Assembly (NCBI RefSeq): GCF_048403405.1
Contig: NZ_CP183129.1
Reading direction: 5' to 3' (one strand)
From: Escherichia coli
GTDB taxonomy: Bacteria > Pseudomonadota > Gammaproteobacteria > Enterobacterales > Enterobacteriaceae
Length of the DNA stretch: 64,000 nt
Each line of letters opens with the position of its first letter. Position 1 is the first letter of the stretch. The position numbers are program-made. Positions 58,101-61,100 of this stretch are shown here, one piece after another.

Positions 58101-61100
58101 ATTGTGGTCAGTTAACGTATGATGTTGATACCCGTCATCAGGTTTCTTCGCCAGTCAAAGGTGTAACGACAGAAGTGGTTGTTGCAGGTAGCGATAGCAA
58201 ACGTCGAATCGTGTTAAATCGCTACGATTAATTTGCCACCCTGGTTTTTTAATCGGATTTAGAAAGCTGAAATCATTCGTGTGAATGATTTCAGCTTTTT
58301 TATTTATATCAATAATACCACTTACAAAAATCTGCATTAATTAATAGATGTGATAAATATTTAATATGCTTAAGTATTTGTTGTGTTTATATTGCAATAG
58401 TTAATTTGTTTTAAATCAATAAAACAATATGTTTACATTGCGGCAACTTTTTTGATGTGAGAAATTTGTTTCCAAGAGATACAGACTCTTAACAACCAAA
58501 AAATAAATTTTATTAAGGAACATATTATGAAACGTTCAATTATTGCTGCCGCTGTCTTTTCTTCTTTTTTTATGAGCGCTGGGGTATTTGCCGCAGACGT
58601 TGATACCGGAACATTAACCATTAAAGGGAATATTGCAGAATCTCCGTGTAAATTCGAAGCGGGTGGCGATTCAGTAAGTATTAATATGCCAACTGTACCA
58701 ACCACTGTCTTTGAAGGTAAAGCTAAATACTCGACCTATGATGATGCAGTCGGTGTAACCAGCAGCATGTTAAAAATTAGCTGTCCGAAAGAAGTTGCTG
58801 GTGTAAAACTCTCGTTGATTACCAACGATAAAATAACCGGAAACGATAAGGCGATAGCCAGTAGCAACGATACCGTGGGGTACTATCTCTATTTAGGTGA
58901 TAACAGCGATGTCCTGGATGTTTCTGCACCTTTTAACATTGAGAGTTATAAAACAGCGGAAGGTCAATATGCTATTCCGTTTAAAGCAAAATACCTGAAG
59001 CTGACAGATAATTCAGTGCAATCAGGTGATGTGTTATCTTCTCTGGTTATGCGTGTGGCGCAGGATTAATAAATAAAACTTCAAGTTTCTCCAGGTAATA
59101 AACATGGCCGCTATCCCCATGGCGGCCTTTTAATTTAAGAGGCATTAAGATGAAAGGATTATTAGCTTTACTCATTTCTTCTATGGTCCTTCCTGCACAT
59201 GCCGGTATTGTTATCTACGGGACGCGTATTATTTACCCGGCAGAAAATAAAGAAGTGATGGTGCAGTTGATGAATCAGGGAAACCGTTCTTCGCTGCTGC
59301 AGGCGTGGATTGATGATGGCGATACGTCGTTACCACCAGAAAAAATTCAGGTTCCTTTCATGTTAACGCCACCAGTGGCAAAAATAGGGGCAAATTCCGG
59401 GCAGCAAGTAAAAATCAAAATTATGCCGAATAAACTGCCCACTAATAAAGAGAGCATTTTTTATCTGAATGTTCTGGATATTCCACCAAATAGTCCAGAG
59501 CAAGAGGGCAAGAATGCACTGAAATTTGCAATGCAAAACAGAATTAAATTGTTTTACCGGCCTGCGGGTATTGCGCCAGTAAATAAAGCGACATTTAAAA
59601 AGTTACTGGTAAATCGCAGTGGCAATGGATTGGTGATAAAAAATGACTCAGCAAATTGGGTAACGATTTCGGATGTCAAAGCTAATAATGTCAAAGTCAA
59701 TTATGAAACTATTATGATTGCCCCCTTAGAAAGTCAGAGTATTAATGTCAAAAGTAATAATGCGAATAACTGGTATCTGACCATTATCGATGACCATGGC
59801 AACTATATTAGTGACAAAATTTAATTGCAGGAGCTGCCTATGTTGAGAATGACCCCACTTGCATCAGCAATCGTAGCGTTATTGCTCGGCATTGAAGCTT
59901 ATGCAGCTGAAGAAACCTTTGATACCCATTTTATGATAGGTGGAATGAAAGACCAGCAGGTTGCAAATATTCGTCTTGATGATAATCAACCCTTGCCGGG
60001 GCAGTATGACATCGATATTTATGTCAATAAGCAATGGCGCGGGAAATATGAGATCATTGTTAAAGACAACCCGCAAGAAACATGTATATCAAGGGAAATT
60101 ATCAAGCGGTTAGGCATTAATACCGATAACTTTGCCAGCGGTAAGCAATGTTTAACATTTGAGCAACTTGTTCAGGGTGGGAGCTATACCTGGGATATCG
60201 GAGTTTTTCGTCTCGATTTCAGTGTCCCGCAGGCGTGGGTGGAAGAACTGGAAAGTGGCTATGTTCCACCGGAAAACTGGGAGCGGGGTATTAATGCGTT
60301 TTATACCTCTTATTATGTGAGTCAGTATTACAGCGACTATAAAGCGTCGGGTAATAGCAAGAGTACATATGTACGTTTTAACAGCGGGTTAAACTTACTG
60401 GGGTGGCAACTGCATTCTGATGCCAGTTTCAGTAAAACAAATAGCAATCCAGGGGGGTGGAAAAGCAATACCCTGTATCTGGAACGTGGATTTGCCCAAC
60501 TTCTCGGCACGCTTCGCGTGGGTGATATGTACACATCAAGCGATATTTTTGATTCTGTTCGCTTCAGCGGTGTGCGGTTGTTTCGTGATATGCAGATGTT
60601 GCCTAACTCGAAACAGAATTTTACTCCACGGGTGCAGGGGATTGCTCAGAGTAACGCGCTGGTAACTATTGAACAGAACGGTTTTGTGGTTTATCAGAAA
60701 GAGGTTCCTCCTGGCCCGTTTGCGATTACAGATTTGCAGTTGGCCGGTGGTGGAGCAGATCTTGATGTCAGCGTGAAAGAGGCGGACGGTTCGGTAACCA
60801 CCTATCTGGTGCCTTATGCAGCGGTGCCGAATATGCTGCAACCTGGCGTGTCGAAATATGATTTTGCGGCGGGTCGTAGCCATATTGAAGGGGCGAGCAA
60901 ACAAAGTGATTTTGTCCAGGCGGGTTATCAGTATGGTTTTAATAACTTATTGACGCTGTATGGCGGATCGATGGTCGCGAATAATTATTACGCGTTCACT
61001 TTGGGGACTGGCTGGAATACACGCATTGGTGCCATTTCCGTCGATGCCACGAAGTCGCATAGTAAACAAGACAACGGCGATGTGTTTGACGGGCAAAGTT

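What the first reader, a model, noticed from the sequence alone, without database searches (positions are those of the whole stretch)
58306..58526. AT-rich, probably silenced promoter region of the cryptic yeh chaperone-usher fimbrial operon
The 220 bp upstream of yehD are extremely AT-rich with phased A/T tracts, which is typical of H-NS-silenced fimbrial promoters. The operon (yehD pilin, yehC chaperone, yehB usher, yehA adhesin-like) is complete, with intercistronic hairpins and a strong terminator. The preceding yehE has its own terminator, so yehDCBA is probably an independent transcription unit.
Basis: partly seen in the sequence, partly recalled or inferred. Interest (0 to 1): 0.25.

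Follow-up and report, generated by a model that had tools for sequence, protein, structure and literature searches.

The report
Known H-NS-bound yehD fimbrial promoter region
This is the very AT-rich control region in front of the E. coli yeh fimbrial genes, already catalogued as bound by the silencing protein H-NS and repressed by ArcA, so it is real but ordinary and already described.

Summary
The window is E. coli. Positions 58306-58526 are the yehE-yehD intergenic region, just upstream of an intact yehDCBA chaperone-usher fimbrial operon.

**Observation.** The AT-richness is real. GC is 22.6%, the single lowest-GC stretch in the 64 kb. "Phased A/T tracts" is not supported: there is no 10-11.5 bp periodicity, and the tract count matches what the composition gives. 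Only one intercistronic hairpin exists, not several.

**Interpretation.** It holds, and it is already published for K-12.
- This intergenic region is one of 78 catalogued "promoter islands", marked as H-NS-bound.
- yehDCBA is listed as H-NS-associated and cryptic.
- ArcA-P direct repeats map to 58407-58449.
- CsrA binds the GGA at the ribosome-binding site.

**What I add.** The region is bipartite.
- The distal 85 bp diverges at about the neutral rate but stays about 20-23% GC.
- The proximal 141 bp is the most conserved part of the locus. It holds a 40-bp run (58456-58495) invariant across nine Escherichia sequences, and the ArcA block is recognisable in Citrobacter.
- The yehE terminator and the yehD-yehC hairpin both show compensatory base changes.

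The transcription start site remains unmapped. "Cryptic" depends on strain and condition, because EHEC expresses yeh from its native promoter.

**Verdict.** Already known, low interest.

The parts
57950..58231 (+). yehE (93 aa, DUF2574/YehE family). Upstream neighbour, not part of the yehDCBA unit as annotated.
   Evidence: ORF; Pfam PF10836, E 9e-51; RefSeq annotation of a 100%-identical strain.
58261..58306 (+). yehE intrinsic terminator: 18-bp stem, 4-nt loop, then a T-tract. It insulates yehD from yehE read-through.
   Evidence: Terminator scan. Fold gives -23.7 kcal/mol, z -6.05. Four of 17 pairs are kept by changes on both sides across 6 taxa. A hairpin is also present at this position in Citrobacter.
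58301..58385 (.). Distal, hypervariable AT-rich spacer (GC 0.20). Its sequence is free to drift but its composition is retained. Inferred to be an H-NS-binding platform.
   Evidence: Pairwise diversity is 0.224, against 0.232 at yehD third codon positions. Only 37.6% of columns are invariant in 9 Escherichia sequences. Identity between the two haplogroups is 64%. GC is 0.20-0.235 in all 8 taxa.
58386..58449 (+). Conserved block I (TATATTGCA...TTTACATTGCGGCAAC). It contains the published ArcA-P site with four direct repeats at 58407-58449.
   Evidence: The ArcA 43-mer from PMC3798270 supplements maps here with 1 mismatch. The block is 81% identical to Citrobacter, against 55% for the distal spacer.
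58438..58466 (+). Best-placed predicted sigma-70 promoter: -35 TTGCGG (58438-58443), 17-bp spacer, TG at 58458-58459, -10 GAAATT (58461-58466). Predicted start ~58473. An alternative candidate is -35 TTTAAA 58410-58415 / -10 TACATT 58434-58439, with start ~58446. Neither is experimentally mapped.
   Evidence: Own position-weight-matrix scan, scores 6.8 and 8.6. The strict consensus scan found no + strand site in this region. The ArcA paper lists 'no TSS' for yehDCBA.
58456..58495 (+). 40-bp invariant block TGTGAGAAATTTGTTTCCAAGAGATACAGACTCTTAACAA. It includes an imperfect inverted repeat, TTGTT(TCC)AAGAG-N7-CTCTTAACAA, at 58466-58495. Function unknown: core promoter/leader, or a regulator site.
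   Evidence: It is the longest invariant run in a 1.2-kb alignment of 9 Escherichia sequences. The enclosing 61 bp are at least 95% identical in all 5305 E. coli genomes that cover at least 80% of it, and occur once in nearly all of them. The RNA fold is not significant, z -1.09.
58515..58520 (+). Shine-Dalgarno AAGGAA. Its GGA (58517-58519) is the only GG in the proximal leader and corresponds to the CsrA site shown by EMSA in EHEC.
   Evidence: Sequence. PMC11287998 reports that CsrA shifts the yeh 5'UTR and that a GG->CC mutation abolishes the shift. GGA is invariant in all 8 taxa, including Citrobacter.
58527..59069 (+). yehD, major fimbrial subunit (180 aa).
59106..59127 (+). yehD-yehC hairpin (9 bp, GC-rich) followed by TTTTAATTT. 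Likely an attenuator or stabiliser that favours major-subunit mRNA.
   Evidence: -15.7 kcal/mol, z -3.42. Five of 9 pairs have compensatory changes, including in Citrobacter.
59150..59824 (+). yehC, periplasmic chaperone (224 aa).
59840..62320 (+). yehB, outer-membrane usher (826 aa).
62336..63370 (+). yehA, adhesin-like subunit (344 aa, with a C-terminal Fimbrial domain).
63427..63453 (+). Operon terminator: 8-bp G+C-rich stem plus CTTTTTTT.
   Evidence: -14.7 kcal/mol, z -1.95.

Best explanation
58306-58526 is the regulatory region of the yehDCBA gamma-4 chaperone-usher fimbrial operon. It has two parts.
- A distal ~85 bp stretch (58301-58385) is about 80% A+T. Only its composition is conserved.
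- A proximal ~140 bp stretch (58386-58526) is strongly conserved. It carries the ArcA-P direct repeats, the probable core promoter, a 40-bp invariant element, and the ribosome-binding site with its CsrA GGA motif.

Most likely mechanism:
- H-NS coats the AT-rich DNA, and the rest of this lower-GC operon, and keeps transcription very low under laboratory conditions. RNA polymerase can still bind the many promoter-like sequences unproductively (the 'promoter island' behaviour).
- ArcA-P adds anaerobic repression by sitting on the promoter.
- Expression needs relief of silencing plus further input. The reported candidates are SlyA or BolA over-production, ethanolamine, low temperature or static growth, and positive CsrA action on the leader.
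- The yehE terminator upstream makes yehDCBA largely its own transcription unit.

Shown here: composition, anatomy, conservation pattern, terminator covariation, and the mapping of published sites.

Taken from the literature on K-12 and EHEC: H-NS occupancy, ArcA and CsrA binding, and the expression effects.

Inferred: that the same holds in this strain, the position of the promoter, and the distinct roles of the two halves.
For: **Sequence and anatomy**
- This is the lowest-GC stretch of the window.
- The locus is identified as yehE-yehD by a 100% match to annotated genomes and by Pfam domains.

**Published sites and occupancy, mapped to this window**
- A published promoter island marked as H-NS-bound covers ~58186-58542.
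- H-NS association is tabulated independently.
- The locus is a static EPOD.
- ArcA: a ChIP-seq peak with four direct repeats at 58407-58449, and 5.4-fold derepression in an arcA mutant. ArcA also selected YehD in genomic SELEX.
- CsrA EMSA on the GG of the leader.
- The PyehD-gfp fusion was weak in wild-type K-12.

**My own measurements**
- Promoter-like site density is 19-20 per 300 bp against a mean of 4.4, the 99.7th percentile of the window.
- Bipartite conservation: distal diversity 0.224, about the same as yehD third codon positions; proximal diversity 0.067.
- The 40-bp invariant run.
- The proximal region is 91% identical between haplogroups whose yehD is only 80% identical.
- The ArcA block is 81% identical in Citrobacter.
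- Population-wide conservation of 58440-58500, against a variable whole intergenic region.
- Terminator covariation.
Against: - No H-NS data exist for this strain, and the evidence for K-12 is second-hand. I could not retrieve the ChIP tables or Korea et al. 2010.
- The ArcA ChIP peak was seen in only one replicate.
- There are no phased A-tracts, and the H-NS high-affinity 10-mer is not enriched.
- Loss of the EPOD did not by itself induce yehDCBA.
- EHEC expresses yeh from its native promoter.
- The transcription start is unmapped, and the strict promoter scan finds no good sigma-70 match on the + strand.
Confidence: 0.8

Rival explanations
1. The operon is quiet mainly because its promoter is intrinsically weak and needs an unidentified activator. 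That activator could act through the invariant 40-bp block. H-NS binding would then be a by-product of AT-richness, not the main brake.
For: - No + strand site passes the 9-of-12 consensus scan, and the best PWM candidates have poor hexamers.
- Disappearance of the EPOD did not induce yehDCBA.
- SlyA did not robustly induce the plasmid-borne fusion.
- The 40 bp are invariant without significant RNA structure, which suggests a protein site.
Against: - Korea et al. 2010, as summarised in PMC5797941, report H-NS repression of yeh.
- H-NS occupancy is reported in two ChIP datasets.
- The yad and yeh loci encode no predicted DNA-binding protein (PMC11287998).
- The two explanations are compatible, not exclusive.
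Confidence: 0.3
2. yehE and yehDCBA form one operon driven from upstream of yehE. The 58261-58300 hairpin would then be an attenuator or processing site, and 58306-58526 an internal regulatory spacer rather than the main promoter.
For: - yehE is always found next to the yeh operon in Escherichia and Citrobacter.
- One study calls the unit yehEDCBA.
- Elpers and Hensel cloned the cluster starting at the yehE ATG.
- RT-PCR in EHEC found the yeh locus expressed as one transcript.
- The stem has only 5 G-C pairs out of 18.
Against: - The hairpin plus T-tract is strong (z -6.05) and is kept by compensatory changes.
- The ArcA site, the promoter-like elements and the deepest conservation all lie downstream of it.
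- Gonyar et al. call yehD the first gene of the locus.
- K-12 regulon tables list yehDCBA as the unit.
Confidence: 0.15
3. The region is a phase-variation switch, either a fimS-type invertible element or a pap-type Dam/Lrp methylation switch.
For: Many fimbrial operons are phase-variable (general knowledge). There is a homopolymer length difference between strains (A6 versus A5 at 58498-58503).
Against: - There is no GATC site anywhere in the intergenic region.
- There are no flanking inverted repeats of the fimS kind. The only inverted repeats are the terminator and two weak AT-rich pairs.
- There is no recombinase or regulator gene next to the operon.
- No genome in the sample shows the segment inverted.
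Confidence: 0.02
4. The conserved proximal block encodes a small RNA or a structured cis-regulatory leader (riboswitch or thermometer).
For: The high conservation of 58386-58526, and a small hairpin at 58466-58495 with a different inverted repeat at the same place in Citrobacter.
Against: - There is no Rfam match. The only hits are chance microRNA/snoRNA hits at E of at least 0.12.
- Folds are not better than shuffles, z -0.6 to -1.1.
- No compensatory pairs were found in the alignment.
Confidence: 0.05

Closest known systems
E. coli K-12 promoter island 2190229-2190585 (yehD/yehE) of Panyukov and Ozoline 2013
   Same: It is the orthologous interval and maps to window ~58186-58542. It shares the gene order, the AT-richness and the dense promoter-like sites. 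The proximal 141 bp are 98.6% identical to K-12.
   Different: This strain's whole intergenic region is only ~90% identical to K-12, and the distal spacer 85%. It is 295 bp here against 292 bp in K-12. H-NS binding was measured in K-12, not in this strain.
Upstream regions of the other cryptic K-12 chaperone-usher operons (yadN, elfA, sfmA, ybgD, yfcV, yraH), also listed as promoter islands marked as H-NS-bound
   Same: They belong to the same class: AT-rich regions upstream of poorly expressed fimbrial operons, marked as H-NS-bound. Several are SlyA- or BolA-responsive.
   Different: There is no sequence similarity. The yeh block has a single matching place in nearly all genomes (median 1, at most 2). 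yeh did not respond to human serum, whereas yad did.
fimS/fimA promoter of type 1 fimbriae
   Same: An AT-rich fimbrial promoter region marked as H-NS-bound, also listed among the promoter islands.
   Different: fim uses an invertible element with flanking inverted repeats and the FimB/FimE recombinases (established knowledge). Nothing of that kind is present here.
ArcA-P-repressed promoters with multiple 11-bp-phased direct repeats (Park et al. 2013)
   Same: The published four-repeat site for yehD is present with one mismatch at 58407-58449 and overlaps the predicted promoter elements.
   Different: It is a weak site: 12.3 bits, and a ChIP peak in one replicate only. No TSS is available to fix its position relative to the promoter.

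Membership tests
H-NS-silenced (xenogeneic-silencing type) promoter region | A+T content far above the genome average over at least 200 bp | tested here: met
   GC is 0.226 against 0.504 for the window. It is the lowest trough in the 64 kb.
H-NS-silenced (xenogeneic-silencing type) promoter region | H-NS occupancy in vivo (ChIP) | not testable with these tools
   It is reported for the K-12 orthologue in two ChIP datasets, as tabulated in PMC3661553 and PMC5797941. I could not retrieve the primary tables.
H-NS-silenced (xenogeneic-silencing type) promoter region | Derepression when hns is deleted | not testable with these tools
   The only support is second-hand. PMC5797941 states that Korea et al. 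2010 found yeh repressed by H-NS. Loss of the EPOD alone did not induce the operon.
H-NS-silenced (xenogeneic-silencing type) promoter region | Intrinsic curvature from helically phased A-tracts (frequent, but not obligatory) | tested here: not met
   There is no 10-11.5 bp periodicity, and the tract number is as expected from composition.
H-NS-silenced (xenogeneic-silencing type) promoter region | High-affinity nucleation motif TCGATAAATT | tested here: inconclusive
   There is one 2-mismatch match in the region (58339-58348, - strand). Matches at that stringency are common throughout the window.
Promoter island (Panyukov and Ozoline) | Exceptionally dense overlapping promoter-like sites over at least 300 bp, on both strands | tested here: met
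   With my own PWM there are 19-20 sites per 300 bp against a mean of 4.4, the 99.7th percentile. Two intragenic yeh spots are even denser. I did not use the authors' PlatProm algorithm.
Promoter island (Panyukov and Ozoline) | Listed in the published catalogue | tested here: met
   Entry 2190229_357, yehD(-)/yehE(-), maps onto the window.
Promoter island (Panyukov and Ozoline) | RNA polymerase binding with little productive transcription | not testable with these tools
   This is a general claim for all the islands in PMC3661553. The PyehD-gfp fusion was weak in wild type.
ArcA-P-repressed promoter | ArcA direct repeats overlapping the promoter, ArcA ChIP signal, and derepression in an arcA mutant | tested here: inconclusive
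   The repeats are present with one mismatch. The ChIP signal (one replicate) and the 5.4-fold derepression come from K-12 data. Overlap with the promoter cannot be fixed without a TSS.
Phase-variable fimbrial switch (fimS or pap type) | Flanking inverted repeats plus a recombinase, or paired GATC sites with Lrp and a PapI/PapB-like regulator | tested here: not met
   There is no GATC, no suitable inverted repeats, and no regulator or recombinase gene.
Chaperone-usher fimbrial operon (gamma-4 Yeh type) | Genes for a major subunit, PapD-like chaperone, usher and adhesin-like subunit, all intact | tested here: met
   Pfam domains and intact annotation. The gamma-4 assignment comes from the literature.
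Rho-independent terminator (downstream of yehE) | Stable stem-loop followed by a U-tract, conserved in structure | tested here: met

The most novel reading that the evidence does not exclude
The 40-bp block at 58456-58495 may be the operator of an as-yet unidentified dedicated regulator, or a 5'-leader element, that acts as the true gate of yeh expression. It is invariant across nine Escherichia sequences whose yehD genes differ by up to 20%, and it has a single matching place in nearly all genomes. Such a gate would explain why removing the H-NS/EPOD layer or over-producing SlyA does not switch the operon on. The distal spacer would then be kept only for its composition, as a silencing platform.
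Probability: 0.2. Interest if true: 0.35.

Novelty: already known. Interest (0 to 1): 0.12.

Why it matters
The finding matters little as a discovery. The locus, its crypticity, and its H-NS, ArcA and CsrA inputs are all published.

What the follow-up adds is a practical map for anyone studying Yeh fimbriae, which are present in about 98% of complete E. coli genomes.
- It shows which 140 bp are under constraint.
- It places the published ArcA and CsrA sites within that stretch.
- It shows that the upstream 85 bp keep only their composition.
- It shows that the yehE terminator is under selection.
- It points out that the transcription start is still unmapped.

This is a small, clean example of a silenced promoter with a composition-only module and a sequence-specific module.

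Tried and rejected
**Tests on the region that came out negative**
- Helical phasing of A-tracts. Spectral analysis against 2000 dinucleotide shuffles gave no signal.
- The H-NS high-affinity motif TCGATAAATT is not enriched in the region.
- Rfam scan of 57600-59300 at E<=1 returned only chance microRNA/snoRNA hits on the hairpins.
- RNA structure in the putative leader. Three spans gave z -0.6 to -1.1, and the alignment shows no compensatory pairs.
- An internal ~107-bp tandem duplication was suggested by two short repeats at the same spacing. Self-identity at that offset is not an outlier against shuffles.
- Phase-variation switch features. There is no GATC and no fimS-like inverted repeats.

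**Data I could not obtain**
- Experimental TSS data. Thomason 2015 is not held. The Cappable-seq supplement is truncated before this locus. The Conway 2014 supplements are not held.
- Primary H-NS ChIP tables. The Kahramanoglou supplement is not held. Korea et al. 2010 and Low et al. 2006 are not open access.

**Side checks**
- YehE compared with fimbrial subunits. BLASTP is not significant. There is no Pfam or PDB match beyond DUF2574.
- Mini-ORFs in the conserved block, read by eye. They are not conserved between strains, so I rejected them.
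Full report
**Identity of the locus**

Window 57700-59300 matches 5422 of 5426 complete E. coli genomes. It is 100% identical to strains GN02461, 4621 and one other. The annotation of GN02461 and the ORF list give the following layout:
- apbC/mrp, ending at 57687
- yehE, 57950-58231
- yehD, 58527-59069
- yehC, 59150-59824
- yehB, 59840-62320
- yehA, 62336-63370
- rcnB, convergent on the minus strand

Pfam confirms a complete chaperone-usher set: Fimbrial for YehD, PapD_N/PapD_C for YehC, PapC_N/Usher/PapC_C for YehB, and Fimbrial for YehA. The finding's interval runs from just after the yehE terminator to the base before the yehD start codon.

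**The observation**

The 221 bp have GC 0.226, against 0.504 for the window. Only 0.04% of equally long windows are as low, and no other place in the 64 kb drops to 0.30 or below. "Extremely AT-rich" is therefore confirmed.

"Phased A/T tracts" is not confirmed.
- The AA/TT power spectrum shows nothing at 10-11.5 bp, and 92.7% of dinucleotide-preserving shuffles do as well or better.
- There are 13 AnTm tracts of at least 4 bp, against 14.9 +/- 1.9 in shuffles.

The hairpins and terminators check out as follows.
- The yehE terminator is real: 18-bp stem, -23.7 kcal/mol, z -6.05.
- The yehA terminator-like hairpin is present (63427-63445), but its fold z-score is only -1.95.
- Only one intercistronic hairpin exists, at the yehD-yehC junction (59106-59127, z -3.42). 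The other two junctions fold like shuffled sequence.

**What is already published for this interval**

*H-NS and chromatin*
- In K-12, the yehD/yehE intergenic region is one of 78 "promoter islands", at 2190229-2190585. It is flagged as associated with horizontally acquired DNA, and marked as H-NS-bound under the table's code for the Kahramanoglou and Oshima datasets (PMC3661553).
- By string matching against K-12, this island corresponds to window ~58186-58542.
- Curran et al. list yehDCBA as cryptic, H-NS-associated in the same two datasets, and 3.6-fold up when SlyA is over-produced. They also relay that Korea et al. 2010 found yeh repressed by H-NS (PMC5797941).
- The operon lies in a static extended protein occupancy domain. 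Loss of that domain did not by itself induce it (bioRxiv 10.1101/2024.06.20.599902).

*ArcA*
- Park et al. report an ArcA ChIP-seq peak upstream of yehD (one replicate, 3.9-fold).
- They describe a 43-bp site with four direct repeats, 5.4-fold derepression of yehDCBA in an arcA mutant, and "no TSS" known (PMC3798270 supplements).
- That 43-mer sits at window 58407-58449 with one mismatch.
- ArcA also picked YehD in genomic SELEX (PMC6134199).

*Other inputs*
- BolA over-expression raises yehD and yehC (PMC4337573).
- In EHEC 86-24 the yeh locus is expressed from its native promoter as one transcript. CsrA binds the yehD leader in a GG-dependent way and acts positively. Ethanolamine raises YehD (PMC11287998).
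- Low et al. 2006, as cited by Elpers and Hensel, saw yeh-lacZ activity in static LB, higher at 28 C (PMC7098969).

*Distribution*
- Yeh is a core-associated gamma-4 fimbria, also present in Salmonella (as Stc) and in Citrobacter (PMC3559732).

**Anatomy added here**

I aligned the region from this window, K-12, O157:H7, E2348/69 and GmF067. I then added E. albertii, E. whittamii, Escherichia sp. E1V33 and a further Escherichia lineage, found through an exact-match scan and through YehE homologues. Finally I added Citrobacter sp. CFNIH2, which has the same synteny from metG and apbC through yehE, the yeh genes and rcnB.

The interval splits in two.

*Distal 58301-58385*
- Pairwise diversity among five E. 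coli strains is 0.224, about the same as yehD third codon positions (0.232).
- Only 37.6% of columns are invariant among nine Escherichia sequences.
- It is barely alignable with Citrobacter (55% identity), yet its GC stays between 0.20 and 0.235 in every taxon.

*Proximal 58386-58526*
- Pairwise diversity is 0.067, and 78% of columns are invariant.
- It contains the longest invariant run of the whole 1.2-kb alignment, 40 bp at 58456-58495.
- The locus exists as two deep haplogroups. Between them yehE is ~75% identical, yehD 80%, the distal spacer 64% and the proximal region 91%.
- Block I (58386-58448), which holds the ArcA repeats, is 81% identical in Citrobacter.

*Population level*
- The 61 bp at 58440-58500 are at least 95% identical in all 5305 genomes that cover at least 80% of it, and have a single matching place in nearly all of them.
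- The whole intergenic region is at least 95% identical in only 760 of 5322 matching records.

**Promoter, leader and hairpins**

The strict consensus scan finds no + strand sigma-70 site in the region. A position-weight scan finds 19-20 promoter-like sites per 300 bp on both strands, the 99.7th percentile of the window. This reproduces the "island" property in a simple way, although two AT-rich spots inside the operon are denser still.

The best-placed + strand candidates are:
- -35 TTGCGG (58438-58443), 17 bp, TG, -10 GAAATT (58461-58466), with a predicted start near 58473
- -35 TTTAAA (58410-58415), 18 bp, -10 TACATT (58434-58439), with a predicted start near 58446

The ArcA repeats overlap both. 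Neither is validated.

Other features of the leader and hairpins:
- The leader does not fold better than shuffles, and the alignment shows no compensatory pairs.
- Rfam has nothing.
- The GGA of the ribosome-binding site (58517-58519) is invariant, including in Citrobacter. It is the only GG available for the published CsrA interaction.
- The yehE terminator keeps 4 of its 17 pairs through double changes.
- The yehD-yehC hairpin keeps 5 of its 9 pairs in the same way. Both hairpins are therefore under selection as structures.

**Mechanism**

The best-supported picture is a two-module control region.
- A composition-only AT-rich platform, together with the lower-GC operon body, is bound by H-NS and keeps the operon near-silent in laboratory K-12.
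- A sequence-specific proximal module carries the ArcA-P repeats, the core promoter, an invariant 40-bp element of unknown role, and the CsrA-bound ribosome-binding site.

H-NS, ArcA and CsrA binding are taken from work on K-12 and EHEC. Transfer to this strain rests on 98.6% identity of the proximal module to K-12.

Silencing is not absolute, since EHEC and static or low-temperature cultures express yeh. Loss of protein occupancy alone is not enough to induce it. An additional positive input is therefore likely.

**Rivals**

- A weak, activator-dependent promoter is compatible with the main explanation and partly supported.
- A single yehEDCBA operon is possible, but the selected terminator and the position of the conserved and ArcA elements argue against it.
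- A phase switch is excluded by the absence of GATC sites, suitable inverted repeats and recombinase genes.
- An RNA gene or structured leader lacks any support.

**Verdict**

The feature is real and correctly located, and its interpretation is essentially right, but it is already known. The new elements are descriptive: bipartite conservation, the 40-bp invariant block, hairpin covariation and the deep haplogroups. Interest is low.

Noticed in passing
57900-59100 (yehE, intergenic region, yehD), with loci L003, L008, L009 and L011: The yehE-yehD segment exists as two deeply diverged haplogroups. This window, K-12 and E2348/69 form one group. O157:H7 belongs to the other and is 99.3% identical to Escherichia sp. 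E1V33 and ~95% identical to E. whittamii. Between the groups, yehE is ~75% and yehD ~80% identical at the DNA level. The adjacent ApbC protein is nevertheless identical (same WP accession) in this window's twin strain, O157:H7 and E2348/69. This suggests an old recombination boundary or introgression between apbC and yehE. About 372 of 5422 records fall in the 80-90% identity class.
   Followed up: partly
57950-58231 (yehE) and 58527-58658 (yehD 5' end): The N-terminal 44 residues of YehD give a sub-threshold match to the YehE family model DUF2574 (E 8e-4, 19.7 bits against a cut-off of 27.5). Both proteins start with a signal peptide followed by a T-(A/G)-T-L-T-I-x-G motif and a Cys. YehE homologues were found only in Escherichia, Shigella and Citrobacter; in the two loci I fetched, yehE lies directly upstream of the yeh operon. 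YehE might be a relic or derivative of a fimbrial-subunit 5' end. BLASTP is not significant, and there is no PDB or other Pfam match.
   Followed up: partly
62335-62634 and 59646-59945: The 5' part of yehA and the yehC/yehB junction have GC 0.35-0.38. They carry even more promoter-like sites per 300 bp (24 and 21) than the intergenic region. These are the kind of intragenic spurious promoters that H-NS is reported to suppress.
   Followed up: no
58285-58340, minus strand: The two highest-scoring promoter-like sites of the intergenic region point backwards into the yehE terminator. They are -35 TTAATG / -10 TATTAT (score 10.5) and -35 TTGATA / TG / -10 AATCAT (score 9.9). Antisense initiation would meet the terminator hairpin, which has an A-tract on its other side.
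   Followed up: no
59105-59150; L002:5601-5680: K-12 annotates yehC as 239 aa, from an ATG inside the yehD-yehC hairpin. In this window that frame hits a stop codon, because K-12 has one C fewer in the hairpin loop. The 224-aa start used by RefSeq, preceded by AAGAGG, is the conserved one. The longer K-12 start is therefore probably an over-extension.
   Followed up: partly
L003:1522-1608 and L011:4108-4191 (yehD-yehC spacer of the other haplogroup): In the O157:H7-type haplogroup the conserved yehD-yehC hairpin is followed by AGCATAAATAT instead of a T-tract. There it can hardly act as a terminator and may serve only as an mRNA-stabilising structure.
   Followed up: no
L005:2501-3685 (strain NR1442); L004:1617-1693 (E2348/69): These are examples of operon decay. 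In NR1442 an IS1 sits right after the yehE terminator, and yehD plus the 5' part of yehC are missing. In E2348/69 yehC is annotated as frameshifted.
   Followed up: no
57932-57960 and 58207-58229: The second and third longest invariant runs of the nine-sequence alignment lie at the yehE ribosome-binding site and start codon (29 bp) and at the last codons of yehE (23 bp, third positions included). The second of these contains the palindrome AATCGT...ACGATT. The reason for this nucleotide-level constraint is unknown.
   Followed up: no
58498-58503: There is a homopolymer length polymorphism in the leader or spacer. It is A6 here and A5 in K-12 and the other E. coli strains aligned.
   Followed up: no
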